Origin: an uncultured Candidatus Saccharibacteria bacterium | GTDB taxonomy: Bacteria > Patescibacteriota > Minisyncoccia > Minisyncoccales > CAZJYW01 | Reading direction: 5' to 3' | NCBI GenBank assembly: GCA_964550395.1 | Contig: CAZJYW010000001.1 | Location: 1 to 45,659, forward strand | Length of the DNA: 45,659 nucleotides | Shown: positions 1 to 18,599 of the stretch, piece after piece | How positions within the stretch are numbered: the stretch's first letter is position 1 | Layout: each line of letters opens with the position of its first letter | Translations under genes and position numbers: made by a program | Notes under the pieces: model-generated | What the model saw: the letters and a program-made list of their open reading frames with translations, nothing else | Told to the model about the DNA's origin: nothing | The model's database searches: none

Positions 1-33
1 AAAAAATGGAATTAAATTATAAATGTTGTCAAA

Positions 34-3000
34 ATGGCTAACATTCAAAAGATAATTCTTTTAACGCTGTTTTTAGCTTTTTTGCTTCTTGGTTTCCAAG
101 TCTTTGCCGCTGAGTGTAATTCAAGCGGTTGGAATAATAGTGACTGTACGGTTGATATTTATTATGGAGACCCTGGCGGAGGGTCAGATTTAGCTGAATG
201 TAAATTTGGGACACTAAATGGCACGCCACCACTTCCAAGTTGTTCTACAGTCGAAAACTGGGATACGGCTTGTGTCTGCGGTGGTGCAAGCACTACCTGT
301 AACGGTATAAATATAACAATTGGTTCCGGAGGAAAATGTAGTAGTCAAGGAGAAGGAGCTTGTAAAGTTTGTTCTAAAGCAGTCGATACCGCCGGGAATG
401 AAGGATATTGTGATGACATAGTAGATAATTGTTTATCTTTAAATATTGATTATACTCTTCCTGAAACCGCTATTGAATGTGATAGTACGACCTGCTCAGC
501 CAGTTGGTACAACGCCGACATAAGTATTACCCTACTTTGTTCAGATAGTCATTCTGGTTGCGATAAAACTTATTATTGCGTTGGCCAGATTGATTCCTGT
601 GACCCCGACCCAACCGTAGACGGAATAGAGTATACTGGCGCTTTTACTCTTACAACCGAGGGAACAAATTATGTTAAATATTATTCAATAGACATAGCTG
701 GCAATATTGAGCAGCCAACAAAATCACAAACAATAAAATTAGATAAAAATGACCTCTCTGGTACCTTAACTATTTCCCCGATGACAGTTCAGGTTGATGA
801 AACATTTACTGTTTCAGTTGATAGCCAAGACTCCTTAAGTGGGGTTAATTATATTCATCTTTATCGAGAAGGTTCCCAGATTGATTCTTGTAACTGTGGA
901 GGATTAAATTCCTGTTCTCATTCTTGGAATCTTACTGAATCAACCGAAGGAGTATATACCTATCAAGCTTTAATTTATGATATAGCTGGAAACTCTGTCT
1001 TTAGCAATGCTGAGGAGGTAACCGTAATTCCTCCCGATACCACCCCTCCAGCAACTACCTTAGATGAATATCTACCCGACCCAACCAACGACAATACCCC
1101 AACCTGTTCTGGAGCCTCCATTGATACCCAGAGCCAGGTAGTGGATATTGAATACCGAGTAGACGGAGGGAGCTGGCAAGATGTTGATTTATTTACTCCA
1201 GCTCTTTCTGTTATCTTTACCTTCACCCCCTCGTCTTTAACAGATGGAACTCATACCTTTGAAGTCAGGGCTCAAGATGAAGCAGGTAATTGGGAACAAT
1301 CTCCCTATTCCAGTGACACCTTAACCATTGATACTACTCCACCCACTACCACTATCTCTCCCGATGGAGAAGATTGGGGGAATTCTGACGTTGACTTCAC
1401 TCTAAGCTGTGATGATGGGACAGGTTCTGGCTGTCAAGCTACTGAGTACAAGATAATAGACCAGAGTCAAACCTGCGATACCTCTGATTTAATCACTGGG
1501 AATTCAGGAACAGTCACCTGCCCGGAGGGCCAAACCTGCCAAAAGAAGGTCTGTTTTAGAAGTATTGATAATCTAAACCAGGAAGAGCCGATTAATACCT
1601 CAAATCTTTTTAAGATTGATAAAATAGACCCATCAGGAACCCTTGAAGTTAGCCCAGATTCACCAATAGTGGGAGAAGATATCACCATCACCATTAGCGC
1701 TAACGATGGAGAAAGTGGAGTGGATTATCTTTTAGTTGAAGATGACGGAACTTATTTACCGTCTCAAGATTGTGGTGGAGCTGCTACCTGTGATAAGAGC
1801 TGGATAGTCCAAGAAACAGTATCTGGAGACTATACCTATTGTGGTTTAATCTATGATTTAGCTGCCAATATTAACAATACTACTCCTTATTGTATTACTA
1901 TTACAGTAAAAGAAGCTATTACTCCTCCTACTGTTGAAACTGATCCAGCGACTAATATTGAGGAAACCTCAGCCACTTTAAATGGAAGAGTAATTGCTAC
2001 TGGCGGAGAAGACCCCACTAGATATTTTAAGTGGGATACCACGAACAATTCTATTATTTGGGTGTCACCAACTGGCCACAATGATCCTGATAACGGATGG
2101 AATAATGAAGGAAATGCATATGATGGGGATACTGGTACCCGTGCTACTACTCCGAGTTTAACCGTCGGCACATGGAGTACTTTCCTAGAGCTTACTCATA
2201 CAGCCATAAATTGTAGTAAGATTAGATTCTTTTTAAGTTTTTTAACATATCTTTTATCTGAAGTTGATATAGATGTTTATTATGGGGGCGCATGGCACGA
2301 TGTATACCAAGGTGGTTACACAAAGGATGAATGGATTGAGAAAGATATACCAGCAGGCGAACAGCTTGTTACTAAGGCCCGCTTTAGAGTAAAGAGGGCT
2401 TATAGTGATGGAATAGGTGAACTTAATGAGTTTGATTTCGGAGAAGTTTCTTATGTCAATACTGAAAATTGTGGAATTGGAGGTCCGGGTACTTATTCTG
2501 CTCCTATCTCTGGTTTATCACCCGGAGAAGTATATTATTTTAGAGCAGCAGCTGAGAACATAGCTGGCATGTCTTATGCCGCTAATGAAGAGAAATTCCT
2601 AACTAAACCAGAACCACCTACTAATCTAATTGCTACAGCAGTTAGCCTAGATGAAATTGACTTGACTTGGACTCCAGGGCAAGGCGCTGATTATACTGAG
2701 GTTTGGAGAAAAGAGAGTAGCTGTCCAACTGCCAGAGGGGATGGAGATTTGTTAGCTGGGACAACCTTAGATTATTATAATGATACCGGATTGGATTCTG
2801 GGACTACTTATTGCTATGGTCTTTGGTCTGTAGTTTCAAAAGAAGGTTTGACCCAATATTCAGATGAGGAGCAGTGCGAATGTGCTACTACTATAGCGGA
2901 CACTACCCCTCCAGCAACTACCTTAGATGAATATCTACCAGACCCAACCAACGACAATACTCCAACCTATTCTGGAGCTTCTACTGATACCCAGAGCCAA

Positions 3001-6000
3001 GTAGCAGATATTGAATACCGGGTAGATGGAGGTTCCTGGCTAGATGTTGATTCCTTTACTCCAGCTCCCTCTGTTTCTTTTGCCTTTACCCCTTCTCCTT
3101 TAGTTGATGGAACTCATACCTTTGAAGTTAGGGCTCAAGATGAAGCAGGCAATTGGGAACAATCTCCTTATCCCAGTGACACCTTAACTATTGATACTAC
3201 TCCGCCTCTCACCACTATCTCTCCCGATGGAGAAGATTGGGGGAATTCTGATGTTGACTTCACTCTAAGCTGTGACGATGGAACAGGTTCTGGTTGCCAA
3301 ACTACTGAGTACAAGATAATAGACCAGAGTCAAACCTGTGATACTTCTGATTTAATCACTGGGAATTCAGGAACAGTCACCTGCCCAGAGGACCAAACCT
3401 GCCAAAAGAAGGCCTGTTTTAGAAGTATTGATAATCTAAACCAGGAAGAGACAATTAATACCTCAAATCTTTTTAAGGTTGATAAGATAAACCCTTCAGG
3501 AACCCTTGAAGTTAGTCCAGATTCACCAATAGTGGAAGAAGATATTACCATTACCATTAGTGCTAATGATGGAGAAAGTGGAGTTGATTATCTTTTAGCT
3601 GAAGATGACGGAACCTATTTACCGTCTCAAGATTGTGGTGGAGCTGCCATCTGTGATAAGAGCTGGATAGTCCAAGAAACAGTAGCTGGAGACCATACCT
3701 ATTGTGGTTTAATCTATGATTTAGCTGCCAACGTTAACAACACTACTCCTTATTGTATTACTATTACTGTTACTATTTCTGACGATACTCCGCCTTACGT
3801 AGAGGTAATTGCTGATCCTCCTGAAGTAAAAACTACCTGGCAGAATACTGATGCCACCGCTAATGTTTCTTGTTCTGATCCTGATACTTGGACTTGTGGC
3901 GATTCAGTCACCTTCACTTACAAAGGTAGCTCTGTTACTTATGGAACAGTAGAGAGTCAGGGTAAGTGTTGGATGGATAGAAATCTTGGCGCCTCGCGAA
4001 TGGCTTGGTCCTACAATGACTCTTTGGCTTACGGAGATTTGTTCCAGTGGGGCAGATTGGATGATGGTCATCAAACTCGCACCAGTGGTAAAACTACGAC
4101 CCTTTCCAGCACAGATATCCCCGGCCACAGTAATTTCATCTACGTTACGAGCCCCATTTATGACGACTGGAGATCTCCCCGAAATGATAACCTTTGGCAA
4201 GGAGTTTCAGGTACCAACAATCCTTGCCCTTCTGGTTGGCGGATACCTGCTGAGGCAGAGTGGGACACTGAACGAGCCAGCTGGAGCCAGCAGAACTATA
4301 TTGGCGCTTTTGACAGCCCCCTTAAACTTACCGTTGGTGGTTACCGGTATTACAGAGACGCTTCCCTCCACGGTATGGGTAGCTACGGCCAATATTGGGC
4401 TTCCACTGTGGATGGTTCGTACGCTAGCAGCCTGCACTTTCAAAACAACGCTGCCGATACGGATCCCGACCACCGGGCCGTCGGTTTTTCGGTTCGCTGT
4501 ATCAAAGATTCAGATTCAGATTTAGGCTGTGATTCAGCATCTTACAGGTTAAAAACCTATACTGTAAACCCTGGGACTTGTTCAACTAACTATGCCGATT
4601 ATACTTTAGCTTCTCCCCAGACTGTTTCTTCTTATCAATGGCTTTGCGGAACAGCCAAGGATTTAGTTGGCAATGCTGGCTTCTCCAGCCCAGTAGAATT
4701 TAAGGTTGACAAGATTAATCCTTCAGGAGCTTTAACTGTTAGCCCGGAGAATCCAATCATTGGCCAAGATATTACCATTACCATTGTTGGCCAGGATGGA
4801 GAAAGTGGAGTAGGTGATGTTTTAGCTAAAGATGATGATGATTGGTTAATAACAAAAAATTGTGGAGGAACTTCTCCTTGTAATAAAAATTGGGTAGTCC
4901 AGGAGACAGCAGCTGGAGACCATACCTATTGTGGTTTAGTTTATGATGTGGCTGATAGCTACTTTTATACCAATTGTAAGACAATAACGGTAACTACTAC
5001 TGGACTTGTTTGCGATGTAAATGTTCAGAATAATACGGCGGTTGTAAATCAATGGATTTCAATTAATGTTTCTGGCTCTCAGGGAGCGATAGCCGAAGTC
5101 CGTTTTACTAGTAATTTGATTGGTGAGCCTGCTGGCAGCTGGACTGATTGGTATGGCTGGGATGTTTCTTCTGGTGATTGGGATGCCAGTTTCAAGATAA
5201 TGAAATGGAGTTTTGCTGAAACAGGAAATTACGAAGTCTGGGTAGAATTAAAAGATGGAAGTGGCAACACCCAGGCTTGCTATGACACAATTTTAATTAT
5301 GGAGTGTTATCCCGGCCAGACAAAAACCTGTACTTCCTTCCAAGATTGTAGTCATACAATAACTTGCCAACCAAACGGGACCTGGCCTTCTTGTCCAGAA
5401 GACCAATGCGTATCTGGAACCACTCAATCTTGTGGAGTAAATGGACTTCAAACCTGCATTGATACCTGTACCTGGGGACCTTGTGTTACCCCGCCACCTG
5501 ACGGTGATGGCTGTCCTTGGCCACCAGATATTAGTTGTGATATTTGCTGGAAACCGGTATGTAATACCGAAACTGATGAGTGGGAATGTCAGCCTGATCT
5601 TGATGCGGCCGGGACCGACTGCGGTGATTGTTTAATGTGTGATAACAGCGGAAATTGCAGTATCCCTCTTTGTTCAGGGATTGCCGAAAGTTGTGAATGT
5701 ATTCCGGGTTCTCCAGATTCCTGCAAAGATTGTTCTGATTATGGAATTGAATGCGGTTATAAAGAAGGACCTTGTTATTGCGGTCAATACGAATATCCAA
5801 TTTGGAGTTGCGATGAGGGAGAATGCCAATGTTACTGTCAGGAGGATGAAACCGGTGAAATCTGTCCAAGCGAGCCGCCTGAAGAATGTGAGTATAGTCC
5901 ACCTATTGTCAGCATAGTTCCGGACTATCGAGAGGGAGCAGCGGGCGACCGTTTAACTTATACCGTTTCGGTTATCAATCAGGATGAGGGAGTGGAATGT

Positions 6001-6900
6001 GAATCCTCTAATTTCATTTTAAGCACAGGTGGAATTTGCGATAGTTGGAATTGTGATTTAGATTCGCTAACTTTAACCATCGCTCCACAATGTTCTCAAA
6101 CCACCCAATTACATGTCAGCTCACCCGCTGAGCCCCTTGCTCCCAAAGAATACTATGTTATTTCGGTTGCTGCTGTTAATCAGACAAGCGGACTTTTCGG
6201 AGCCGATGAAGCTATTTATAAAGTCCTTAATAATCCTCCCTCAGCGATAAGCCTTTCTGCAACACCCATTGGCGATTGCTTTCTTAACCACCCATATGTT
6301 AGATTGGAATGGTCTTTTTCCGACCCTGATTTAGCTTCGGGTGATAAGCAATCTGCTCGTGAAGTAGAAATATTTAGCGACCCGGGTTACATCAATCTGG
6401 TAAATAGGATTCCTGAGCCGGATTATTCCCCTGGTTCTACTGAATATGCTCCCAATACCGGCTTATCTTTCAATGCCACTTATTACTGGAGGGCAAGAGT
6501 TTGGGATAATGAAGGCGCTCTTTCAGACTGTGGCCAGCCCGAGGGCTGGTGTTATCCAGAACAACCCTCTTTCCATACTGAAAAAGAATGGCCCTGGCCT
6601 TATTTTTCAGTTGCCCCTCTTACTCAAAGAGTTCATTTGAAGGAGAGGGTTGAGTTTACTGACGAATCTACATGTTATGATGGTCCTTGTAATTTTAGTC
6701 CCACAACTTATTACTTATGGGAATTCGGCGATGGAGGAACCAGCCCGGAGAAGGTTAAAACTTCCCATATTTACTCGGCAACAGGAAACTACGACGTTAC
6801 TTTAACCATAACTGATGATATCGGGGAATGTACTTATGGCCCGATACAAATAGTCGTCACCCTTCCTCTGCCAGAATGGTGGGAGATAGCACCATTTTAA
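34..6900 (+). CDS. Giant secreted cysteine-rich multidomain surface protein (2288 aa): signal peptide, repeated Ig-like beta-sandwich modules, fibronectin type III, FISUMP-type domain, Cys-rich module, C-terminal PKD domain
   Basis: Uninterrupted 6.9-kb ORF. The N-terminus MANIQKIILLTLFLAFLLLGFQVFA/AE looks like a Sec signal peptide. An fn3-like stretch reads PEPPTNLIATAVSLDEIDLTWTP. FISUMP motifs are CWMDRNLGA, CPSGWRIP, GGYRYY, YWAST and GFSVRCIKD. The PKD-like motif is WEFGDGGTS...HIYSATGNYDVTLTITD. The module DKI(D/N)PSGTLxVSP...GESGV...YCGLIYD recurs four times. Confidence 0.85.
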   Translation: MANIQKIILLTLFLAFLLLGFQVFAAECNSSGWNNSDCTVDIYYGDPGGGSDLAECKFGTLNGTPPLPSCSTVENWDTACVCGGASTTCNGINITIGSGGKCSSQGEGACKVCSKAVDTAGNEGYCDDIVDNCLSLNIDYTLPETAIECDSTTCSASWYNADISITLLCSDSHSGCDKTYYCVGQIDSCDPDPTVDGIEYTGAFTLTTEGTNYVKYYSIDIAGNIEQPTKSQTIKLDKNDLSGTLTISPMTVQVDETFTVSVDSQDSLSGVNYIHLYREGSQIDSCNCGGLNSCSHSWNLTESTEGVYTYQALIYDIAGNSVFSNAEEVTVIPPDTTPPATTLDEYLPDPTNDNTPTCSGASIDTQSQVVDIEYRVDGGSWQDVDLFTPALSVIFTFTPSSLTDGTHTFEVRAQDEAGNWEQSPYSSDTLTIDTTPPTTTISPDGEDWGNSDVDFTLSCDDGTGSGCQATEYKIIDQSQTCDTSDLITGNSGTVTCPEGQTCQKKVCFRSIDNLNQEEPINTSNLFKIDKIDPSGTLEVSPDSPIVGEDITITISANDGESGVDYLLVEDDGTYLPSQDCGGAATCDKSWIVQETVSGDYTYCGLIYDLAANINNTTPYCITITVKEAITPPTVETDPATNIEETSATLNGRVIATGGEDPTRYFKWDTTNNSIIWVSPTGHNDPDNGWNNEGNAYDGDTGTRATTPSLTVGTWSTFLELTHTAINCSKIRFFLSFLTYLLSEVDIDVYYGGAWHDVYQGGYTKDEWIEKDIPAGEQLVTKARFRVKRAYSDGIGELNEFDFGEVSYVNTENCGIGGPGTYSAPISGLSPGEVYYFRAAAENIAGMSYAANEEKFLTKPEPPTNLIATAVSLDEIDLTWTPGQGADYTEVWRKESSCPTARGDGDLLAGTTLDYYNDTGLDSGTTYCYGLWSVVSKEGLTQYSDEEQCECATTIADTTPPATTLDEYLPDPTNDNTPTYSGASTDTQSQVADIEYRVDGGSWLDVDSFTPAPSVSFAFTPSPLVDGTHTFEVRAQDEAGNWEQSPYPSDTLTIDTTPPLTTISPDGEDWGNSDVDFTLSCDDGTGSGCQTTEYKIIDQSQTCDTSDLITGNSGTVTCPEDQTCQKKACFRSIDNLNQEETINTSNLFKVDKINPSGTLEVSPDSPIVEEDITITISANDGESGVDYLLAEDDGTYLPSQDCGGAAICDKSWIVQETVAGDHTYCGLIYDLAANVNNTTPYCITITVTISDDTPPYVEVIADPPEVKTTWQNTDATANVSCSDPDTWTCGDSVTFTYKGSSVTYGTVESQGKCWMDRNLGASRMAWSYNDSLAYGDLFQWGRLDDGHQTRTSGKTTTLSSTDIPGHSNFIYVTSPIYDDWRSPRNDNLWQGVSGTNNPCPSGWRIPAEAEWDTERASWSQQNYIGAFDSPLKLTVGGYRYYRDASLHGMGSYGQYWASTVDGSYASSLHFQNNAADTDPDHRAVGFSVRCIKDSDSDLGCDSASYRLKTYTVNPGTCSTNYADYTLASPQTVSSYQWLCGTAKDLVGNAGFSSPVEFKVDKINPSGALTVSPENPIIGQDITITIVGQDGESGVGDVLAKDDDDWLITKNCGGTSPCNKNWVVQETAAGDHTYCGLVYDVADSYFYTNCKTITVTTTGLVCDVNVQNNTAVVNQWISINVSGSQGAIAEVRFTSNLIGEPAGSWTDWYGWDVSSGDWDASFKIMKWSFAETGNYEVWVELKDGSGNTQACYDTILIMECYPGQTKTCTSFQDCSHTITCQPNGTWPSCPEDQCVSGTTQSCGVNGLQTCIDTCTWGPCVTPPPDGDGCPWPPDISCDICWKPVCNTETDEWECQPDLDAAGTDCGDCLMCDNSGNCSIPLCSGIAESCECIPGSPDSCKDCSDYGIECGYKEGPCYCGQYEYPIWSCDEGECQCYCQEDETGEICPSEPPEECEYSPPIVSIVPDYREGAAGDRLTYTVSVINQDEGVECESSNFILSTGGICDSWNCDLDSLTLTIAPQCSQTTQLHVSSPAEPLAPKEYYVISVAAVNQTSGLFGADEAIYKVLNNPPSAISLSATPIGDCFLNHPYVRLEWSFSDPDLASGDKQSAREVEIFSDPGYINLVNRIPEPDYSPGSTEYAPNTGLSFNATYYWRARVWDNEGALSDCGQPEGWCYPEQPSFHTEKEWPWPYFSVAPLTQRVHLKERVEFTDESTCYDGPCNFSPTTYYLWEFGDGGTSPEKVKTSHIYSATGNYDVTLTITDDIGECTYGPIQIVVTLPLPEWWEIAPF
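1036..1907 (+). repeat. Intragenic direct repeat, copy 1 (872 bp)
   Basis: Colinear with 2899-3770 at a constant offset of 1863 nt, with no indels seen. Confidence 0.9.
2899..3770 (+). repeat. Intragenic direct repeat, copy 2 (872 bp)
   Basis: The protein copies (DTTPPATTLDEYLPDPTNDNTPT...YCITITV) differ at about two dozen of roughly 290 residues by manual comparison. Confidence 0.9.
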
Positions 6901-6902
6901 GT

Positions 6903-6930
6903 TTGACATTCTAAAAATATTTGCTATGAT
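6903..6930 (+). promoter_or_regulatory. Sigma70-like promoter upstream of rny (TTGACA, 16-nt spacer, TATGAT)
   Basis: TTGACA at 6903-6908 and TATGAT at 6925-6930, about 38 nt upstream of the rny ATG. Confidence 0.5.
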
Positions 6931-6967
6931 TATATTATGTTAAATATTTTTAATTTCATTAAAGAAT

Positions 6968-8497
6968 ATGAATCTACTTATTCCTTTAATCGCGGGCATA
7001 GTGGCTATTTCTCTGGGCTCAATTTTGGGTTACTATACTCGTCAATCAATTGCCAAAAGAAATTATCGGACTATCGAAGCCCGTCTTCAAAAGAAAATTT
7101 CTCAAGCCAAAACTCAAACTGAAGAAATTTTGGCCGGAGCCCAAAAAGAAGCCAATCAAATTCTGGAGACAACAAAAAAAGAAACAGACGAGAGGAGAAC
7201 AGCCCTTTTCAATACCGAAAGGGTTTTACTGAAGAGAGAAAATATTTTAGAAAACAAACTTTCGGCTTTTGAATCAACTGAGCGAGCCTTCCAGGAAAAA
7301 GTCAGAAAACTGAGAGAGATAAAAGAAAGCTTGGAGAGCTTAAAAACCGAGGCTTTGGAAAAATTGGAGAGAATTTCTGGGCTTCCCAGAAAAGAAGCAA
7401 AAAAAGAATTGTTAGAAAATCTGGAAAAAGAATATCAGAAAGAAATTTTAGAAAAAATTAAAAAACTGGAAACCGAAAGCCAAGACCAATTTGAGAGAAA
7501 AGCAAAGGAAATTTTAGCTCAGGCCATCCAAAAATTCGCTCTTTCCCAAGCTCAAGAAATTACCACGACCACGGTCCCCCTTCCCTCAGAAGAAATCAAA
7601 GGAAGAATTATTGGTAAGGAAGGAAGAAACATCAGAACTTTAGAGAAATTAACCGGGGTGGAAATAATAGTGGATGAGACTCCCGAAGCAGTAGTGATTT
7701 CTGGCTTCGACCCAATTAGACGCCAAATTGCTAAAACTGCCTTGGAAAAGTTAATTCAAGATGGAAGAATTCAGCCAGCCAGGATTGAAGAAACAGTAGA
7801 AGCAACCCAAAAAGAAATAGCTTCTCAAATCAGAGAGGCTGGAGAGCAGGCCATTTACGATACCGGCTTAGTGGGTTTTGACCCAAAATTAGTTCAATTG
7901 TTAGGTAGATTAAAATTTAGAACTAGCTATGGCCAGAATGTTTTACTGCATTCAATCGAGGTTAGCCATCTTGCCGCGGCCTTAGCCGCTGAAATTGGAG
8001 CCGATTCTTTAATTTGCAAAAAAGCCGGCCTACTTCACGACATTGGTAAAGCAGTTGATCAGCAGGTTGAGGGTTCCCATGTTGATATCGGAATTAAAAT
8101 TTTGGAAAAATTTGGGGTGGAAAAAGAAGTAATTGATGCCATGAAATCACATCATGAAGAATATCCTTATCAAACCATTGAAGCAGTGATTGTCCAGGCG
8201 GCAGACCAAATTTCCGGCGCCCGACCCGGGGCCAGAAAAGATACTTTAGAAAATTATCTTAGGAGATTAGGGGATTTGGAAAATATTGCTTTGAGTTTTC
8301 CGGGAGTTGAGCGGGCCTGGGCTTTGCAGGCTGGCCGAGAAATAAGAGTTTTTGTTAAACCAGAAGAAGTTGATGACCTCTCGGCTAAAAAACTGGCTAA
8401 AGAAATTGCCAACAAAATTCAGGAAGAATTAAAGTATCCTGGCGAAATAAAAGTTAATTTAATTAGGGAAAACCGAGTAATTGAGTACGCAAAGTAA
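6968..8497 (+). CDS. rny: Ribonuclease Y
   Basis: N-terminal TM helix, long Lys/Glu coiled coil, KH domain (IKGRIIGKEGRNIRTLEKLTGVEIIVD) and HD domain (LLHDIGKA...HH). Confidence 0.93.
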   Translation: MNLLIPLIAGIVAISLGSILGYYTRQSIAKRNYRTIEARLQKKISQAKTQTEEILAGAQKEANQILETTKKETDERRTALFNTERVLLKRENILENKLSAFESTERAFQEKVRKLREIKESLESLKTEALEKLERISGLPRKEAKKELLENLEKEYQKEILEKIKKLETESQDQFERKAKEILAQAIQKFALSQAQEITTTTVPLPSEEIKGRIIGKEGRNIRTLEKLTGVEIIVDETPEAVVISGFDPIRRQIAKTALEKLIQDGRIQPARIEETVEATQKEIASQIREAGEQAIYDTGLVGFDPKLVQLLGRLKFRTSYGQNVLLHSIEVSHLAAALAAEIGADSLICKKAGLLHDIGKAVDQQVEGSHVDIGIKILEKFGVEKEVIDAMKSHHEEYPYQTIEAVIVQAADQISGARPGARKDTLENYLRRLGDLENIALSFPGVERAWALQAGREIRVFVKPEEVDDLSAKKLAKEIANKIQEELKYPGEIKVNLIRENRVIEYAK

Positions 8498-8772: not shown

Positions 8773-9720
8773 GTGAATCTCAAGAAAATTTTTGACCAGT
8801 TCAATATTCCAGCTCAGTGTAAAAAATATGGCCTTCCACTTTGGCAATGTCCTCATTTCCTTTTTTTGATAATGGGGATAATTATTATTGTCTCAACCTT
8901 GGTTGCCTATGCCGTTGGTAACCGTTATGTTGAAGACCCTCAGGCAGTAGCCTTGATTGTTCTTTTAGTAACGGCAATTTTATTTACGATTGCCGTAATT
9001 ATTACCCGGAGTTTTGAAAGATTAGCTGAAGCTAATCGGATGAAGTCAGAGTTTATTAGTATTGTTTCTCATCAACTTCGTTCTCCTCTTTCTAATCTGA
9101 GATGGGCGATTGAATTATTAATTTCCGGAAGGGTCAATGGGGTTAGTGAAAAACAGCTAGAATATTTCAAAATTTTAAAAGAAAATAGTGCCAGGATGAG
9201 AGAGTTAGTCTCCGATTTATTAATCGTTTCCAGAATTGAAACGGCAAAACTCCCCTTAAAGAAAAAAGAAATTTCTTTAGAAGATTTGGTCAGGAAAATA
9301 ATTGAAGAACTTGAGGTCTTAGCTAAGGCTTCCAACGTTAAAGTAGAATTTGGGGTCAAAGAAAATTTATCAAAAGTTTTTGTTGACCCTTCGCGAATTC
9401 GATTAGTGATTGAGAATCTTTTGGATAATGCCATTCGTTACATTAAAGAAAAAGGCCAGGTTGAGATAAAATTGGAGAAAATTGACAAATATTGCCGTTT
9501 TGAAATTAAAGATACCGGGGTTGGAATTCCTAAAGAGGATCAAAAATATATTTTTCAAAAATTTTTTCGTTCAGAAAATGTGATGAGATATCAAACTCAA
9601 GGTTCGGGCCTGGGTTTATATATCGCTAAATCAGTCGTCGAAAAATCAGGGGGAAAGATTGGATTCAAAAGCCAAGAAGGTATTGGGTCGACTTTCTGGT
9701 TTACTTTACCAATAAAATAA
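8773..9720 (+). CDS. Sensor histidine kinase (two TM helices, HisKA plus HATPase_c)
   Basis: H-box SHQLRSPLSNL, N-box DNAIRY, G1 DTGVGI, G2 GSGLGL. The annotated start is GTG. Confidence 0.88.
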   Translation: MNLKKIFDQFNIPAQCKKYGLPLWQCPHFLFLIMGIIIIVSTLVAYAVGNRYVEDPQAVALIVLLVTAILFTIAVIITRSFERLAEANRMKSEFISIVSHQLRSPLSNLRWAIELLISGRVNGVSEKQLEYFKILKENSARMRELVSDLLIVSRIETAKLPLKKKEISLEDLVRKIIEELEVLAKASNVKVEFGVKENLSKVFVDPSRIRLVIENLLDNAIRYIKEKGQVEIKLEKIDKYCRFEIKDTGVGIPKEDQKYIFQKFFRSENVMRYQTQGSGLGLYIAKSVVEKSGGKIGFKSQEGIGSTFWFTLPIK

Positions 9721-9737
9721 TTCTATTAGATATATCT

Positions 9738-10106
9738 ATGAAACGTATTTTGTTTGTTGAAGATGAATTTACTCTTCAAAAAACTTTTGGAGAAATTTTA
9801 AAACAGGAAGGTTACGAGATGGTTTCGGCTTTAGATGGGGAAATAGGTTTAAGGTTAGCTAAAACCAAAAAGCCAGATTTAATTTTGCTCGATTTGATTT
9901 TGCCTAAAGTCCATGGCTTTGAAGTTTTAAAGAAATTAAAAGAAGATATAGAAACTAAAGATATCCCAGTGATTGTTTTGACCAATCTCGAGGGAATAGG
10001 AGACGTAGAAAAAGCGATTGAGCTAGGAGCAACTACTTATTTGGTTAAGGCCAGTTATTCTTTAGAAGAAATAATAGAAAAAATAAAAAAAGCCCTCGGT
10101 GAATAA
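9738..10106 (+). CDS. Receiver-only (CheY-like) response regulator
   Basis: 122 aa with receiver signatures (VEDE..., PDLILLDLILP, TNL, K near the C-terminus) and no output domain. Confidence 0.88.
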   Translation: MKRILFVEDEFTLQKTFGEILKQEGYEMVSALDGEIGLRLAKTKKPDLILLDLILPKVHGFEVLKKLKEDIETKDIPVIVLTNLEGIGDVEKAIELGATTYLVKASYSLEEIIEKIKKALGE

Positions 10107-10112
10107 ATTTAT

Positions 10113-11864
10113 ATGAAAGTAGACCCGGGACAACTAAGAGCCTTTCTTTTAGACGCTGGTTTAGTAACCGAGAAACAATTTGACGAGGCTCAAAAAAAAG
10201 CAGAGGAAACCAAACAAAAAGTTGGTGATGTTTTGATTTCTGAAGGCCTAATTTCCCAAGAAGAACTAATTAAACTCGAAGCCTATATTTTGGGAATTCC
10301 TTTTGTAGATTTAGAAAAAGAAATTGTTCCGCCGGAAGCTCTGAAAATTATTCCTGAACCCATTGCTCGTTCTCATAATATCGTTGCTTTCAGAAAAAAG
10401 GGAAACGATTTAGAGGTAGCCATGTTAGATCCTGAAGACTTAAGAACAATTGAGTTTATTAAAAAGAAGGAACCTGGATTAAAAATTTTACCAAGGCTAA
10501 CTACTCCGGAATCAATCAAAAATGTCTTAAGACAATATCAAAAAACTCTTGAGGCTGAGTTTGGAGAAATTATCAAAAAAGAAGCTAAGGGGATTAAAAT
10601 TATCAGTGAAAAGGGAGTAGTAGAAGAAAAAGAGGAACTTAAAAAAATAGCTGGGGAGATTCCAATAATCAGGATTGTTGATACTTTAATGAAGCACGCC
10701 ATTTTAGAGAGAGCTTCCGACATCCATATTGAACCCCTGGAAAAAGAAGTAATAGTTAGATATCGAATTGATGGAATTTTGCATGATACGATGACTTTGC
10801 CCAAAACAGCGGCTTCTGGAATTGTAGCCAGGATAAAGGTTTTATCAAATTTAAAATTAGACGAACATCGACTTCCCCAAGATGGAAGATTTAAAATTGA
10901 AACTGAGGAATATCGATATTCGATTCGAGTTTCAATTTTACCAGTTTTTGATGGAGAAAAAATTGTGATGCGGCTTTTATCTGAGACCTCTAAAGCCCAT
11001 ACCTTAGAAGGCTTAGGTTTTATGGGAGATGCTTTGGAAAGAGTTCAGGACAATTTAAGAAAGCCAGTAGGGATGATTTTAATAACTGGACCTACTGGCT
11101 GCGGGAAAACTACCACTCTTTATGCCATGATGGAAATTTTGAATATTCCTGGAGTAAATATTTCTACAGTAGAAGACCCAGTTGAATACCGAATGCCCAG
11201 AATTAATCAAACTCAGGTTAGACCAAAAATTGGATTAACTTTTGCCTCAGGGCTTAGAGCTTTGGTTAGACAAGACCCAGATATTATTATGGTGGGGGAA
11301 ATTAGAGATAATGAAACAGCTGGTTTAGCTATTAATGCTGCCTTAACCGGTCACTTAGTTTTGTCTACTTTACACACTACTGATGCGGCTGGGGCCATTC
11401 CTAGATTGATTGACATGAAAGCCGAGCCATTTTTAATTTCCTCCACTTTAAATTTAATTTTAGCCCAGCGATTAGTGAGACGGTTTTGCAACGAAAAAGA
11501 AAAATATACTTTAACTGATTCTGAAATAAAAAATTTAAAAAAATATTGCGACCCAGACAGAATTCTGAAGATTCTAAAGGAGGAAAAAATAATAAAACCA
11601 AAAGAAAGTTTCCGAGACATCGGATTCTATCGGCCCAAACCATCTAAAGAATGTCCTGAGGGATATAAGGGCAGAATTGGAATTTACGAATCCTTACCAG
11701 TTACTGAAACCATCAAGGAATTAATTGTTAAAAGAGCAACTTCTTACCAAATCACCGCTCAAGCCCAAAAAGAGGGAATGAGAGCTATGATTGAAGATGG
11801 TTTCGTTAAGGCAGCCCAAGGGATAACCAGTATTGAGGAGGTATTAAGAGTAATCATTGAATAG
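10113..11864 (+). CDS. pilB: Type IV pilus assembly ATPase PilB (GspE family)
   Basis: N-terminal T2SSE_N-like domain, Walker A GPTGCGKTTT, GspE-type Asp and His boxes (MVGEIRD, TGHLVLSTLHT). Confidence 0.92.
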   Translation: MKVDPGQLRAFLLDAGLVTEKQFDEAQKKAEETKQKVGDVLISEGLISQEELIKLEAYILGIPFVDLEKEIVPPEALKIIPEPIARSHNIVAFRKKGNDLEVAMLDPEDLRTIEFIKKKEPGLKILPRLTTPESIKNVLRQYQKTLEAEFGEIIKKEAKGIKIISEKGVVEEKEELKKIAGEIPIIRIVDTLMKHAILERASDIHIEPLEKEVIVRYRIDGILHDTMTLPKTAASGIVARIKVLSNLKLDEHRLPQDGRFKIETEEYRYSIRVSILPVFDGEKIVMRLLSETSKAHTLEGLGFMGDALERVQDNLRKPVGMILITGPTGCGKTTTLYAMMEILNIPGVNISTVEDPVEYRMPRINQTQVRPKIGLTFASGLRALVRQDPDIIMVGEIRDNETAGLAINAALTGHLVLSTLHTTDAAGAIPRLIDMKAEPFLISSTLNLILAQRLVRRFCNEKEKYTLTDSEIKNLKKYCDPDRILKILKEEKIIKPKESFRDIGFYRPKPSKECPEGYKGRIGIYESLPVTETIKELIVKRATSYQITAQAQKEGMRAMIEDGFVKAAQGITSIEEVLRVIIE

Positions 11865-11929
11865 CCGAGCCACCGAAGGTGGCGAAGGCTGGAGATGAAG
11901 GCAAACCCGAAGGGGCAAACTTCATCGAC
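11864..11929 (+). repeat. GC-rich two-hairpin repeat element, copy A (pilB-pilC intergenic)
   Basis: GCCGAGCCACCGAAGGTGGCGAAGGCTGGAGATGAAGG...CTTCATCGAC. Hairpin 1 is GCCACC-GAA-GGTGGC and hairpin 2 has the stem GATGAAG/CTTCATC. It matches 38578-38630 and the reverse complement of 24243-24301. Confidence 0.85.
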
Positions 11930-11933
11930 TAAA

Positions 11934-13151
11934 ATGCCACGCTATTTTTATACTGCCAAATCTCTTAAGGGGGAAAGTAAAACCGGTAGTTTAGTGGCCA
12001 AAAATGAGCCCCAATTAGCAAAAAAACTGCGAGAACAGGGTTTTCTTTTAATTAAAGCTAAAACTGAAAAAGAAACTAAGAAAAGAAAATTAGAAATCTC
12101 CCTTCCCTTTTTTGGAGGGGTTTCTTTAACTGAGAAAATATTTTTCATTAGAAATTTACGGGTAATGCTATCCTCAGGTCTTTCCTTGCCCCGAGCCCTC
12201 CATATTTTAGCTGACCAATCGAAAAGTAAGAAGTTTAAAAGCGCTTTATTAGATATCAGAGAAGAAATTACTAAAGGAAAAAGTTTTTCTGAATCATTAA
12301 GTAAATATCCTAATATTTTCTCTGAACTTTTTTTTAACATGGTAAAAGTAGGGGAGGAAGCCGGAACCTTAGAGGAAGTTTTAAAAATCCTCTCTGAACA
12401 GATGGAGAGAGAGCACGAACTATTATCAGAAATAAAAGGGGCATTGATTTACCCAGCAGTAATTATAGTGGCAATGATTGGGATTGGAATTTTAATGCTG
12501 GTGATGGTTGTTCCCCAATTAGCCGCAACTTTTGAAGAGCTAAATGTTGAACTTCCCGCTACTACCAAATTAGTAATTGGTTTAGGTGCTTTTTTAGTTG
12601 AGAAATTGTACTTAGTTATTTTAATCTTTATTTTTCTTATCTTTATTTTCTTGAGAGTGCAAAAGACAAAAAATGGGAAAGCAGCCATAGATGCTCTTTT
12701 ATTAAAAATCCCCATTATTTCTCCAATTATCAGAAAAACTAATTCGGCCTCTACGGTTAGAACTTTAAGTTCTCTCATTTCTTCGGGGGTGCCCATTGTT
12801 AGGTCTTTGGAAATTATTTCTGGAACTTTAAGTAATATTTATTTTAAGGAAGCGATGAAGGAAGCAGCTAAAAAGGTTAGAAAGGGAGAAAAATTGTCTG
12901 AGGCTCTTAAACCTTATCAAAATATTTATCCTTTGATTGTTATTCAAATGATTGCGGTAGGAGAGGAAACTGGTGAAACTTCCAACATTTTAGCCAAATT
13001 AGCTGCTTTTTTTGAAGAAGAAGTAAGGAGAATTACTAAAAATTTAACGGCAGTCATTGAACCAGTAATAATGTTAATCATTGGAGCAGCAGTTGGTTTT
13101 TTTGCCATCTCCATGGTTCAGCCAATGTATAGTATGCTGGGAGGACTATAA
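11934..13151 (+). CDS. pilC: Type IV pilus platform protein PilC (GspF family)
   Basis: Two GspF repeats and three TM segments. The ORF-track start at 11895 lies inside the repeat element, so the ATG at 11934 (MPRYFYTAKS) is more plausible. Confidence 0.88.
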   Translation: MPRYFYTAKSLKGESKTGSLVAKNEPQLAKKLREQGFLLIKAKTEKETKKRKLEISLPFFGGVSLTEKIFFIRNLRVMLSSGLSLPRALHILADQSKSKKFKSALLDIREEITKGKSFSESLSKYPNIFSELFFNMVKVGEEAGTLEEVLKILSEQMEREHELLSEIKGALIYPAVIIVAMIGIGILMLVMVVPQLAATFEELNVELPATTKLVIGLGAFLVEKLYLVILIFIFLIFIFLRVQKTKNGKAAIDALLLKIPIISPIIRKTNSASTVRTLSSLISSGVPIVRSLEIISGTLSNIYFKEAMKEAAKKVRKGEKLSEALKPYQNIYPLIVIQMIAVGEETGETSNILAKLAAFFEEEVRRITKNLTAVIEPVIMLIIGAAVGFFAISMVQPMYSMLGGL

Positions 13152-13154
13152 AAC

Positions 13155-14942: not shown

Positions 14943-14945
14943 AAA

Positions 14946-17372: not shown

Positions 17373-17373
17373 T

Positions 17374-17445
17374 ATGTTCAATGAATTTTTAATTCATTTC
17401 ATATCTCATAAATCTTTAGATTTATTTCGATGTTAAAATTTCTTA
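17374..17445 (+). promoter_or_regulatory. Promoter/operator/start cassette, copy 1 (upstream of pilM)
   Basis: ATGTTCAATGAATTtttAATTCATTTCA...TTCGATGTTAAAATTT. It has the 8-bp perfect inverted repeat AATGAATT/AATTCATT and is about 85 percent identical by eye to 22751-22820, including the first four codons (MLKF). Confidence 0.55.
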
Positions 17446-18533: not shown

Positions 18534-18594
18534 ATTCGTAAATATTCGTCCTAGACCCGTTCGTCCCGAAAGGGACGGACTAAGGCAATTCGTA
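18534..18594 (+). repeat. Small hairpin element flanked by 7-bp direct repeats (pilM-pilN intergenic)
   Basis: ATTCGTA occurs at 18534-18540 and again at 18588-18594. The two copies bracket a GC-rich hairpin, CGTCCC-GAAA-GGGACG (18562-18577), which extends to about 9 bp. Confidence 0.6.
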
Positions 18595-18599
18595 GGGTT

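What the first reader, a model, noticed from the sequence alone, without database searches (positions are those of the whole stretch)
34..6900. Giant secreted, cysteine-rich mosaic protein, a candidate host-attachment adhesin
A single 2288-aa ORF combines the following parts:
- a Sec signal peptide;
- at least four copies of an Ig-like module (DKI.PSGTL.VSP...GESGV...YCGLIYD);
- modules with the pattern D(V/I).FTLSC.D..SGC..T.Y;
- an fn3 domain and a FISUMP-type domain;
- a segment of about 200 aa with roughly 50 cysteines (5280-5900);
- a PKD domain.

It ends in ...TLPLPEWWEIAPF, with no recognisable LPXTG, PEP-CTERM or TM anchor, so how it is retained on the cell is unclear. In a small, probably host-dependent genome, a gene using about 15 percent of this window is a strong candidate for a cell-cell attachment factor. 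The cysteine density implies extracellular disulfide chemistry.
Basis: partly seen in the sequence, partly recalled or inferred. Interest (0 to 1): 0.6.

Follow-up and report, generated by a model that had tools for sequence, protein, structure and literature searches.

The report
Giant pilus-linked adhesin with docking tail
The largest gene of this ultra-small (about 0.46 Mb) candidate-phyla-radiation bacterium encodes a real, secreted, 2288-residue mosaic surface protein, and its odd ending (…LPLPEWWEIAPF) is the conserved signature of an apparently undescribed protein family, often encoded beside type IV pilus genes, that probably mounts interchangeable sticky heads on the cell surface or on the pilus.

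Summary
There is one 2288-aa ORF (34-6900, +) with an in-frame stop upstream and a Sec-type signal peptide. It has four Big_7 Ig modules, three clear OmpL47-type modules plus one probably split, two Big_13, fn3, a FISUMP lectin-like domain, a Cys-rich block and a terminal PKD. One number is wrong: the Cys-rich block has 34 cysteines, not about 50.

Unitigs from four independent salt-marsh metagenomes reproduce every piece at even depth, so nothing points to a chimera.

The new result is the tail. [LF]P[LF]PxWxE[IV]xPF-COOH, directly after a PKD domain, ends proteins of 330 to 2800 aa in about 60 Patescibacteria (mostly Parcubacteria) genomes, against about 3 matches expected by chance. The N-terminal heads are shuffled: the closest relative has BACON/PKD where this protein has OmpL47/FISUMP.

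Fifteen family members sit directly in front of minor-pilin genes. About twenty, this one included, sit in front of rny, a two-component pair and pilB-pilC. The genome has no sortase.

Best reading (about 0.45): a non-pilin adhesin that works like PilY1 and docks through its conserved C-terminal module. No pilus contact is shown. Pfam and NCBIfam have no model for the family; other windows of this scan have noted it.

The parts
34..108 (+). Sec-type signal peptide (aa 1-25, cleavage probably after VFA)
   Evidence: Read from the sequence. In-frame stop upstream. No predictor was run.
109..450 (+). N-terminal Cys-rich region (aa 26-139, about 15 Cys). It resembles the N-terminus of a 1830-aa family member (L060).
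   Evidence: No Pfam or NCBIfam family.
451..1032 (+). OmpL47-type module 1 (aa about 140-236), then Big_7 Ig-like module 1 (aa 237-333)
   Evidence: NF047446 best stretch 162-231. Big_7 251-312. Motif positions.
1036..1911 (+). Supermodule copy A: Big_13 (aa 335-434), OmpL47-type 2 (435-528), Big_7 module 2 (529-626)
   Evidence: DNA repeats D1 and D2.
1924..2619 (+). fn3-like domain (aa 631-862) that seems to carry a 132-aa insert of unknown fold (aa 673-804, nt 2050-2445)
   Evidence: Only weak fn3-type hits after the insert is spliced out (Pur_ac_phosph_N E=0.0018, fn3 E=0.045). The insert matches no family. Inferred.
2614..2868 (+). fn3 domain (aa 861-945)
   Evidence: PF00041, 25.1 bits against a cut-off of 25.0.
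2899..3774 (+). Supermodule copy B: Big_13 (aa 956-1057), OmpL47-type 3 (1058-1149), Big_7 module 3 (1150-1247). It is 87.9% aa identical to copy A.
   Evidence: 44 synonymous and 37 non-synonymous codon differences. Copy-specific unitigs in 4 metagenomes.
3784..4707 (+). Probable fourth OmpL47-type module, split by an inserted FISUMP (Fib_succ_major) lectin-like domain (FISUMP at aa about 1302-1492, nt 3937-4509)
   Evidence: PF09603 scores 38.7 bits on the segment. The spliced flanks align end to end with module 2: score 73 against 36±6.7 for shuffles. NF047446 does not detect the spliced sequence, so the nesting is inferred.
4708..4998 (+). Big_7 Ig-like module 4 (aa 1559-1655)
5065..5283 (+). 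Weak PKD-like domain (aa about 1678-1750)
   Evidence: PF00801, E=0.001, 19.5 bits, below cut-off. AF2 gives beta strands with pLDDT 60-75.
5278..5901 (+). Cys-rich block (aa 1749-1956, 34 Cys). Its first about 70 aa form a conserved 10-Cys frame shared with 8 other family members.
   Evidence: No Pfam family. AF2 pLDDT is 71-81 for aa 1749-1820 and below 50 for the rest.
5902..6192 (+). Beta-sandwich domain (aa about 1957-2053)
   Evidence: AF2 pLDDT 75-91. Weak A2M_BRD hit, E=0.012.
6241..6861 (+). Conserved C-terminal module: fn3/Ig domain of the Rha78A_N type (aa about 2070-2181), then a PKD domain (aa about 2190-2276)
   Evidence: Pfam. Alignments A1 and A2. AF2 pLDDT 90.7, pTM 0.78. Foldseek matches the ColG PKD domain, TM 0.82-0.85.
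6862..6900 (+). Family-defining tail LPLPEWWEIAPF-COOH (aa 2277-2288) and the TAA stop
   Evidence: Conserved in same-order relatives that were found by protein similarity. 63 pattern matches in genome contigs against about 3 expected. One copy in the own genome.
6903..6930 (+). Promoter-like site (TTGACA-16-TGnTATGAT) between the giant gene and rny
   Evidence: A consensus match only.
6968..8497 (+). rny (RNase Y), the conserved downstream neighbour
   Evidence: Pfam. rny lies directly downstream in 20 of the 63 tail loci.
8773..20208 (+). Two-component pair, pilB, pilC, three large pilin-like genes, pilM/N/O-like and a LysM protein. This is the type IV pilus block that travels with the rny-type loci.

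Best explanation
The gene encodes a Sec-exported, non-pilin, modular surface adhesin of a Nealsonbacteria-like (Parcubacteria/CPR) cell. It has two functional halves.

(1) A long, fast-evolving head and stalk. It is made of Ig-like spacers (Big_7, Big_13, OmpL47-type, fn3, PKD) that present candidate ligand-binding inserts: a FISUMP lectin-like domain, a 132-aa insert in an fn3-like domain, and two Cys-rich blocks.

(2) A conserved C-terminal module: an fn3/Ig domain, a PKD domain and the free tail [LF]P[LF]PxWxE[IV]xPF-COOH. This module defines an undescribed protein family.

The head binds the partner (host cell or polymer). The conserved module and tail hold the protein, non-covalently, on a conserved component of the bacterium's own surface. 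That component is most likely the minor-pilin (tip or priming) complex of the type IV pilus, so the protein would play the role that PilY1/PilC play in type IVa pili.

Shown here: the ORF, the domains, the family, the tail conservation, the head swapping, the linkage to pilus genes and the absence of sortase. Inferred: export, adhesion, and docking through the tail onto the pilus.
For: - ORF and domains.
- Assembly: every copy-specific piece is present at 99-100% identity and at flank-like depth in unitigs of four separate metagenomes. The two repeat copies differ by 44 synonymous and 37 non-synonymous codons.
- Tail, without circularity: relatives found with the whole protein end in VTLPLPEWMEIPPF, VTQPLPQWQEIAPF, SQLPLPIWKEIAPF, VRLPLPDWKEILPP, VTLPLPRWWEIPPF and ITIPLPEWYEVTPF. 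The module in front of them is only 26-48% identical.
- A degenerate DNA pattern for the tail plus a stop finds 63 loci in 185,579 species genomes. My own estimate from the information content (38 bits) is about 3 by chance. About 58 follow a PKD-like 'V.L.VTD..G' strand and lie in Patescibacteria records.
- Zero matches in about 375 genomes of other classes of the phylum.
- Head swapping: the ortholog at the same place in the nearest genome (rny 91.6% identical) has PKD and three BACON domains in place of OmpL47/Big_13/FISUMP. The last about 670 aa are 73% identical.
- Pilus linkage: in 15 loci a pilin gene (Pfam N_methyl above cut-off) starts about 13 nt after the stop, followed by 2-3 more pilin/PilX_N-like genes. 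A prepilin peptidase lies upstream in 8 loci.
- In 20 loci rny follows. Where at least 3.3 kb of flank is held, 10 of 12 (the window counted) continue with HK, RR and pilB, and pilC further on where the stretch held reaches it (6 of them), as here.
- All these genes lie on the same strand.
- No sortase in the genome, with positive controls.
- The C-terminal module folds confidently (pLDDT 90.7).
Against: - Nothing places the protein on a pilus. No complex prediction, proteomics or expression data exist (one search found no RNA run).
- In this genome the gene is separated from the pilus block by rny, which has its own promoter-like site, and by two tRNA genes on the opposite strand. It is therefore not co-transcribed with the pilus genes.
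- About 25 of the 63 family loci show no pilus gene in the stretch held. Their neighbours are LemA, SecA, L32 and others.
- The tail has fairly high AF2 confidence (pLDDT about 89 falling to 74) in the monomer model. It could pack on its own domain as a structural cap and not be a free docking peptide. I had no coordinates to check this.
- The invariance of the tail in alignment A2 is imposed by the search pattern and counts for nothing. Only A1 is independent.
Confidence: 0.45

Rival explanations
1. Envelope-retained adhesin or surface-layer component that is independent of the pilus. The fn3-PKD-tail module binds a wall polymer, an S-layer or a membrane protein. The neighbourhood with pilus genes reflects only a shared 'cell-surface' region of very small genomes.
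For: - About 25 of 63 loci show no pilus gene nearby.
- In this genome rny and two tRNA genes separate the gene from the pilus block.
- Other surface-protein genes (AWT-motif proteins, a 659-aa PKD protein in G039) also cluster with family members.
Against: - Fifteen loci have a minor-pilin gene within about 13 nt of the stop, on the same strand. This is the arrangement of pilY1 inside the fimU-pilVWX operon (my own knowledge of Pseudomonas).
- No known wall-binding domain (SLH, LysM, CWB, LPXTG) appears in the protein.
- No sortase.
Confidence: 0.27
2. Released (soluble) secreted protein, for example a polymer-binding or scavenging factor. The tail would be only a structural cap of a specialised PKD domain, or a signal for pilus-machinery-dependent release in the manner of TcpF and CofJ of type IVb pili.
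For: - No membrane anchor of any known kind.
- The tail is predicted with fair confidence in the monomer.
- FISUMP and, in the relative, BACON are carbohydrate-associated modules.
Against: - A 12-residue stretch that stays nearly invariant while its domain drifts to 26-48% identity suggests an interaction surface more than a cap.
- No enzymatic domain anywhere in 2288 aa.
- A 240-kDa protein is a costly diffusible product for a 0.46-Mb genome (inference).
Confidence: 0.2
3. Assembly artefact: a chimeric or mis-joined ORF created by the internal 0.9-kb repeats.
For: - The gene starts 33 nt from a contig end.
- It holds repeats of 88-93% identity spaced 1863 nt apart.
- Logan unitigs break at the shared repeat cores, so they cannot prove the order of the segments.
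Against: - All pieces, including both copy-specific versions, recur with 0-2 mismatches and even depth in four independent samples. Left flanks overlap their own copy uniquely. No joints or loose ends appear inside the gene.
- Any swap between the copies keeps the frame and the domain content.
- The relative G039 has the same kind of repeated modules in an open 2787-aa frame.
Confidence: 0.03

Closest known systems
PilY1 / PilC non-pilin tip adhesins of type IVa pili (Pseudomonas, Neisseria, Myxococcus)
   Same: - Large Sec-exported non-pilin protein.
- In many family members it is encoded in or directly beside a minor-pilin operon.
- A conserved C-terminal part is joined to a variable N-terminal, presumably ligand-binding, part.
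   Different: - No PilY1 beta-propeller domain. PF05567 is not among the Pfam hits.
- The conserved end here is fn3 + PKD + a free 12-residue tail.
- In this genome the gene is not inside the pilin operon.
- Contact with the pilus is not shown.
TcpF / CofJ, secreted proteins that dock on the minor pilin of type IVb pili through a short terminal peptide (my own knowledge of the literature)
   Same: A short conserved terminal peptide on a non-pilin, Sec-exported protein would serve as the handle for the pilus tip.
   Different: - There the peptide is N-terminal and the proteins are small and soluble.
- Here it is C-terminal, on proteins of 330-2800 aa.
- No sequence similarity was tested or expected.
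Leptospira OmpL47 and other proteins with the OmpL47-type barrel domain (NCBIfam NF047446 / NF047441)
   Same: Three clear copies of the domain (106.5 bits, cut-off 40), with the D.xFTLSC.D..SGC signature.
   Different: The protein is not an OmpL47 equivalog: NF047441 scores 65 bits against a cut-off of 250. The domain is only a stalk element here.
FISUMP (Fibrobacter succinogenes major paralogous) domain proteins, PF09603 / TIGR02145
   Same: One domain at aa about 1302-1492 with the GWR[IL]P..(A)EW motif. It passes the Pfam cut-off when the segment is scanned alone.
   Different: - A single copy, seemingly nested in another module.
- Below the TIGR02145 cut-off.
- A different organism group and a different overall architecture.
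Giant repetitive adhesins of Gram-negative bacteria (SiiE, LapA, RTX adhesins; PMC6272769)
   Same: A very long chain of Ig-like domains that carries ligand-binding modules away from the cell.
   Different: - Those are type I secretion substrates with a C-terminal T1SS signal, no Sec signal peptide and Ca-binding tandem repeats.
- This protein has a Sec signal. Ca_tandemer scores only 17 bits against a cut-off of 50.
Pam pili of CPR bacteria (bioRxiv 10.64898/2026.03.03.709456)
   Same: A CPR-specific surface structure built from Ig-like folds and proposed to mediate host contact.
   Different: - Pam pilins occur mainly in Saccharimonadia and Microgenomatia and assemble by donor-strand exchange (abstract).
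- PamR scores 13-15 bits here against a cut-off of 300.
- The two are unrelated.

Membership tests
PxWxE-tail family of Parcubacteria surface proteins (undescribed; defined here and in earlier notes of this scan) | Extreme C-terminus [LF]P[LF]PxWxE[IV]xPF followed directly by a stop | tested here: met
   LPLPEWWEIAPF-TAA at 6862-6900. The same tail ends relatives that were found by protein similarity.
PxWxE-tail family of Parcubacteria surface proteins (undescribed; defined here and in earlier notes of this scan) | The tail is preceded by a PKD domain and an fn3/Ig domain of the Rha78A_N type | tested here: met
   PF18911 47.6 bits; PF25788 26.1 bits, just under its cut-off of 27.4. AF2 gives two beta-sandwiches, pLDDT 90.7. 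Alignment A2 has 51 sequences.
PxWxE-tail family of Parcubacteria surface proteins (undescribed; defined here and in earlier notes of this scan) | N-terminal signal peptide and a variable head | tested here: met
   Signal-like N-termini in this protein and in the complete members. Heads differ: WSD-repeat, Cys repeats, BACON, OmpL47.
PilY1/PilC pilus tip adhesins (PF05567) | C-terminal PilY1 beta-propeller domain | tested here: not met
   No PF05567 hit in the Pfam scan of the protein at E<=0.1. The genome-wide search was uninformative because the control genomes did not ring.
PilY1/PilC pilus tip adhesins (PF05567) | Encoded within or next to the minor-pilin operon | tested here: inconclusive
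   Met for 15 family members. In this window the pilin-like genes lie 6-8 kb downstream, beyond rny, two tRNA genes, HK, RR, pilB and pilC.
PilY1/PilC pilus tip adhesins (PF05567) | Physical association with the pilus tip or minor pilins | not testable with these tools
   No multimer prediction and no experimental data.
Sortase-anchored LPXTG surface proteins | LPXTG-like motif followed by a hydrophobic segment and a basic tail, and a sortase in the genome | tested here: not met
   The protein ends 8 residues after 'LPLP' with no TM segment. PF04203 is absent from the genome, and the controls ring in 3 genomes.
PEP-CTERM / other exosortase- or rhombosortase-type C-terminal sorting signals | Motif followed by a TM helix and an Arg-rich end | tested here: not met
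   No residues follow the motif. No such NCBIfam or Pfam hit.
OmpL47 (NF047441 equivalog) | Whole-protein score at or above 250 bits | tested here: not met
   65.1 bits. Only the domain model NF047446 passes (106.5 against 40).
FISUMP domain-containing proteins | PF09603 / TIGR02145 above their cut-offs | tested here: inconclusive
   PF09603 scores 32.9 (whole protein, below 33.9) and 38.7 (segment, above). TIGR02145 scores 33.6, below 41.65.
Type I-secreted RTX/BIg giant adhesins | No Sec signal, Ca-binding tandem repeats, C-terminal T1SS signal | tested here: not met
   A Sec-type signal is present. Ca_tandemer scores 17 bits against a cut-off of 50.
Pam pilus system of CPR | PamR/PamA-type models above cut-off | tested here: not met
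   NF058578 scores 13.2-15.4 bits against a cut-off of 300.

The most novel reading that the evidence does not exclude
The free C-terminal peptide [LF]P[LF]PxWxE[IV]xPF-COOH, with its fn3-PKD module, is a portable docking signal specific to Paceibacteria-type CPR bacteria. Sec-secreted, non-pilin proteins with freely exchangeable heads (lectin-like, BACON, Cys-knot-like, Trp-repeat barrels) would be loaded through it onto the minor-pilin tip complex of the type IV pilus. An organism with a 0.5-Mb genome would then have a cassette system for changing what, or whom, its pilus grabs.
Probability: 0.3. Interest if true: 0.8.

Novelty: new variant of a known kind. Interest (0 to 1): 0.6.

Why it matters
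How ultra-small CPR bacteria recognise and hold their hosts is largely unknown outside a few cultured Saccharibacteria, where type IV pili are required (PMC12206443). This gene is the largest investment of a 0.46-Mb genome.

It also belongs to a family with a conserved 'handle' and rapidly swapped 'heads'. That gives a concrete, testable candidate for the host-specificity determinant of Parcubacteria. The handle is a 12-residue motif that can be searched for, tagged or used as bait.

If the tail proves to be a docking signal for the pilus tip, it would be a new way of mounting non-pilin adhesins on type IV filaments. If it is not, the family still marks an undescribed mode of surface retention in bacteria that lack sortase.

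Tried and rejected
1. Profile search of 1.84 billion representatives with the 51-sequence C-terminal alignment. The top 150 hits are multi-PKD giants whose summed PKD scores swamp the list, so nothing was learnt about the tail. The only job of this kind is spent.

2. AF2 of aa 1650-2288 with a 10-sequence alignment. Mean pLDDT is 50. The second half of the Cys-rich block is unresolved, and the C-terminal module came out worse than in the dedicated job. I ran no fold search on this model because low-confidence models give meaningless matches.

3. Foldseek of the good C-terminal model against the PDB. Only generic PKD and tandem fn3 matches appeared (ColG/ColH PKD, archaeal surface-layer PKD 1l0q, Aureispira GhpA fragments). 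No known docking module.

4. NCBIfam on the spliced 'fourth OmpL47' sequence: no hit. The nesting of FISUMP rests on a pairwise alignment only.

5. Pfam on the Cys-rich block, the N-terminal Cys region and the 132-aa insert: no family.

6. PilY1 family search in the genome: uninformative, because the controls were silent.

7. RNA runs: none.

8. Pam pilus: a different system in other classes; rejected.

9. Sortase, PEP-CTERM and T1SS anchoring: rejected (see the membership tests).

10. Alternative genetic code: not needed. All stops after the tails are TAA, TAG or TGA, and table 11 gives intact neighbouring genes.

11. Literature search for Nealsonbacteria surface proteins: nothing relevant.
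Full report
**1. The observation**

The window is the first 45,659 bases of contig C1 of a 461-kb, 49-contig genome estimated 93.6% complete. Frame +1 is open from ATG34 to TAA6898-6900, giving 2288 aa. An in-frame TAA at 13-15 rules out a longer N-terminus.

The N-terminus, MANIQK / IILLTLFLAFLLLGFQV / FA|AE, has the layout of a Sec signal peptide. It has no lipobox and no pilin motif. I read this from the sequence; no predictor was available.

This is by far the largest ORF of the genome: the next one has 1101 aa.

**2. Domains**

Pfam and NCBIfam give the following.
- Four Big_7-type Ig modules, starting at aa 237, 529, 1150 and 1559.
- Three OmpL47-type barrel domains (NF047446, 106.5 bits against a cut-off of 40).
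- Two Big_13 domains.
- One fn3 that just reaches its cut-off.
- One FISUMP/Fib_succ_major domain at aa about 1302-1492. It scores 38.7 bits when the segment is scanned alone (cut-off 33.9), but it stays below the TIGR02145 cut-off.
- A weak PKD-like domain at about 1678-1750.
- An Rha78A_N-type Ig domain at 2085-2170.
- A clear PKD domain at 2222-2267.

The two flanks of the FISUMP domain, joined together, align end to end with OmpL47 module 2: score 73, against 36 ± 6.7 for shuffles. FISUMP therefore looks nested in a fourth, degenerate module. NF047446 does not detect the joined sequence, so this remains an inference.

In the same way, aa 631-862 look like an fn3-type domain that carries a 132-aa insert of unknown fold (weak).

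The Cys-rich block (aa 1749-1956) holds 34 cysteines, not about 50. The whole protein holds 105. The block has no Pfam family.

**3. Is the ORF an assembly artefact?**

Residues 335-640 and 956-1261 are a diverged duplication: 87.9% aa and 88.5% nt identity, with 44 synonymous and 37 non-synonymous codon differences.

The stretch occurs in at least 24 salt-marsh metagenome runs. I laid the Logan unitigs of four of them on bases 1-7200. They tile it at 99-100% identity and break only at the shared repeat cores. Both copy-specific versions are present (1047-1377 and 2910-3240; 1558-1782 and 3421-3645), each overlapping its own left flank. Depth equals that of the flanks, and there are no joints or loose ends inside the gene.

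Unitigs cannot prove the order of the segments. Any exchange between the copies would, however, keep the frame and the domain content. I see no sign of a chimera.

**4. The tail is not idiosyncratic**

I searched 40 related genomes with the whole protein. The last about 230 aa matched the C-terminal end of proteins of very different length, from 233 to 2792 aa.

Translating those loci shows the same ending directly before the stop: VTLPLPEWMEIPPF, VTQPLPQWQEIAPF, SQLPLPIWKEIAPF, VRLPLPDWKEILPP, VTLPLPRWWEIPPF and ITIPLPEWYEVTPF. The preceding module is only 26-48% identical, apart from one relative at 81% (alignment A1).

A degenerate DNA pattern for P-[LF]-P-x-W-x-E-[IV]-x-P-F-stop carries about 38 bits. 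By my own estimate it should match about 3 times by chance in the 596-Gb collection. It matched 63 loci.
- About 58 of them follow a PKD-type 'V.L.VTD..G' strand.
- These end in a true stop.
- They lie in Patescibacteria records: Nealson-, Portnoy-, Wildermuth- and Yanofskybacteria, Paceibacter, and generic 'Parcubacteria' or 'Saccharibacteria' labels.
- Two hits are plainly chance: one in an Alphaproteobacteria record where TGG stands at the stop position, and one in a Binatia record with an internal stop.

The strict pattern has the following distribution.
- It occurs once in the own genome.
- It is absent from about 375 genomes of other classes of the phylum.
- It occurs in 2 of 200 genomes sampled from the class.
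- By protein similarity, about 8 of the 40 nearest genomes of the same order have the tail.

One caution applies. The invariance of the tail in the 51-sequence alignment A2 is imposed by the pattern and is not evidence. Only A1 is independent.

**5. The family has a conserved handle and shuffled heads**

Complete members range from about 330 to more than 1830 aa. The common form of about 400 aa has a signal peptide, then repeats of 'SDNVSGWAWSENIGWISFN', then the fn3-PKD-tail module. Pfam does not recognise it.

Other members carry heads that recur in different combinations.
- L060 shares our N-terminal Cys-rich region.
- L048, L059, L032, L025, L009, L064, L026 and L034 share our Cys-rich block, in the same place just upstream of the C-terminal module. 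Its 10-Cys frame is conserved: EC.PGQ..CTS.QGC.HTITCQ..TWP.CP.DEC....

The nearest relative is G039, whose rny is 91.6% identical. It has its 2787-aa ortholog in the same place. That protein is 73% identical over the last about 670 aa, but its head is built from PKD and three BACON domains in place of OmpL47/Big_13/FISUMP.

**6. Structure**

AF2 on the last 235 aa with alignment A2 gives pLDDT 90.7 and pTM 0.78. The model has two beta-sandwich domains. The final 12 residues are coil, with pLDDT falling from about 89 to 74.

Foldseek against the PDB finds only generic PKD matches (ColG/ColH, TM 0.82-0.85 on the target) and tandem fn3 matches.

The longer job, aa 1650-2288 with 10 sequences, was poor (mean pLDDT 50). 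Only aa 1660-1820 (pLDDT roughly 60-80, with a weak loop in between) and aa 1950-2070 (a beta-sandwich, 75-91) are usable. The second half of the Cys-rich block stays unresolved.

**7. Surroundings**

Downstream in the window lie, in order:
- a promoter-like site at 6903-6930;
- rny;
- tRNA-Gly and tRNA-Pro on the minus strand;
- a histidine kinase and a receiver-only response regulator;
- pilB and pilC;
- three large pilin-like proteins (595, 331 and 476 aa; the 331-aa one has an N_methyl motif);
- pilM, pilN, a GspM-like protein and a LysM protein.

Upstream, the contig ends 33 nt before the start codon. In G039 the upstream genes are housekeeping genes plus a 659-aa PKD protein.

Across the 63 tail loci:
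- 20 have rny directly downstream. Of the 12 with at least 3.3 kb of flank (the window counted), 10 continue with HK, RR and pilB, and pilC further on where the stretch held reaches it (6 of them).
- 15 others have a pilin gene starting about 13 nt after the stop, followed by 2-3 more pilin or PilX_N-like genes. The N_methyl motif passes the Pfam cut-off in four of the six pilins tested.
- 8 have a prepilin peptidase upstream.
- All these genes lie on the same strand.

About 25 loci show other neighbours (LemA, SecA, L32) or have too little flank to tell. Pilus loci take only a few percent of such genomes, so this is a strong enrichment. It is not a universal rule.

**8. Anchoring alternatives**

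The genome has no sortase, and the controls were positive. The tail is not followed by a TM segment. No LPXTG, PEP-CTERM, SLH, LysM or T9SS-type domain was found in the protein.

VKOR is absent. The only DsbA-like signal is a sub-threshold thioredoxin-fold match. It turns out to be a 392-aa frame with a signal anchor, a CPHC motif and a CcdA/DsbD-like multi-pass domain. This is a candidate for extracytoplasmic thiol chemistry and no more than that.

**9. Interpretation**

The evidence shows three things:
- a real, Sec-type, giant mosaic protein built from extracellular modules;
- membership of an undescribed family defined by an fn3-PKD module and a near-invariant free C-terminal peptide;
- rapid exchange of heads between close relatives, and frequent linkage to type IV pilus genes, often immediate.

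From this I infer the following. The head binds a partner surface or polymer; the FISUMP lectin-like domain and the inserts are the candidate binding sites. The conserved end holds the protein on a conserved component of the bacterium's own surface.

The arrangement in front of minor-pilin genes, and a conserved handle joined to a variable head, are the logic of PilY1/PilC. The most likely partner is therefore the minor-pilin complex of the type IV pilus (about 0.45).

The protein is not a PilY1 homologue, because it has no PF05567 domain. In this genome the gene is not co-transcribed with the pilus genes.

The rivals are pilus-independent retention on the envelope (0.27), a released protein whose tail is a structural cap or an export handle (0.2), and an assembly artefact (0.03).

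**10. Relation to earlier notes of this scan**

I filed my own reading. Only afterwards did a word search show that follow-up agents on other genomes had described the same P-x-W-x-E-type tail and its pilus linkage (e1-1071539, e1-2056609, e1-1076250). These are AI notes, not independent evidence. They agree with what I derived here from the sequence.

Notes on this genome gave the Nealsonbacteria label and the description of the pilus block.

**11. Novelty**

Giant adhesins, CPR type IV pili and non-pilin tip adhesins are all known kinds. New with respect to Pfam and NCBIfam are:
- the tail motif;
- the fn3-PKD-tail handle;
- the head-swapping family it defines.

This gene is one of the family's largest members. 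My literature searches were few and keyword-based and turned up nothing on it.

Noticed in passing
L066 1492-3210, L073, L036, L039 (loci); seen in 14 tail loci: A second recurrent neighbour family. These proteins have a signal-anchor followed by '...FAWTEP(x)PPxxNVxxPxNxGxxxQxK...'. They often lie 1-2 kb upstream or just downstream of tail-family genes, sometimes in several copies. The motif looks like a processed N-terminus of an unknown surface-fibre class. Earlier notes of this scan call them AWT-motif proteins.
   Followed up: no
G000 contig C16, minus strand, around 4507-4608 (locus L075): A 392-aa frame: signal anchor, then a thioredoxin-fold domain with a DsbA-like CPHC motif, fused to a multi-pass CcdA/DsbD-like membrane domain. 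It is the only candidate found for extracytoplasmic thiol-disulfide chemistry in a genome without VKOR.
   Followed up: partly
G000 contig C17, 727-6230 (minus strand): A second pilin locus. It has two short major-pilin-like genes (147 and 155 aa, 'GFTLIELLVV'), two minor-pilin-like genes (98+ and 189 aa) and an 814-aa PilX_N-like protein. The pilus block in the window lacks a short major pilin.
   Followed up: no
G000 contig C20, 3077-5710 (+): Another secreted Cys-rich protein (878 aa, 37 Cys) with a signal peptide. It does not carry the tail.
   Followed up: no
window 6903-6930: A near-consensus extended -10 promoter-like site (TTGACA, 16 nt, TG-TATGAT) lies directly after the stop of the giant gene and 38 nt before rny. 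No terminator-like hairpin lies between the two genes.
   Followed up: partly
window 7204-7223 and the loose ends at 7199: A small GC-rich hairpin (CCTTTTCAATACCGAAAGGG) lies inside rny. Three metagenome contigs carry it ('TAGCCCTTTTCAATACCGAAAGGGTTTTAC'). It may be one of the in-frame hairpin repeats that earlier notes report for this genome.
   Followed up: no
L029 (CAZKCU010000001.1) and L071 (CP179888.1), tail-family proteins of 1088-1106 aa: The heads are made of many copies of a Cys/Tyr-rich repeat of about 45 aa ('YYCSGNYVKKKVVYSGGCSGSSCQGTSTYYYTVTNCGSRTSTTT'), plus two TSP1-like 'CTSWVNRSCGGGSCSATQRQQTRTCTPSGC' units. This is a different head on the same handle.
   Followed up: no
L073 (JAGMDC010000003.1) 1438-1473 and 5907-5942; also G450:C7 43499-45574: Some genomes carry two tail-family genes a few kb apart with identical tail codons. 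This suggests tandem paralogs or gene conversion.
   Followed up: no
window 1, run X3 record 17: A Logan contig from one metagenome extends 745 nt beyond the start of the window. The missing upstream neighbour of the gene could be recovered from public data.
   Followed up: no
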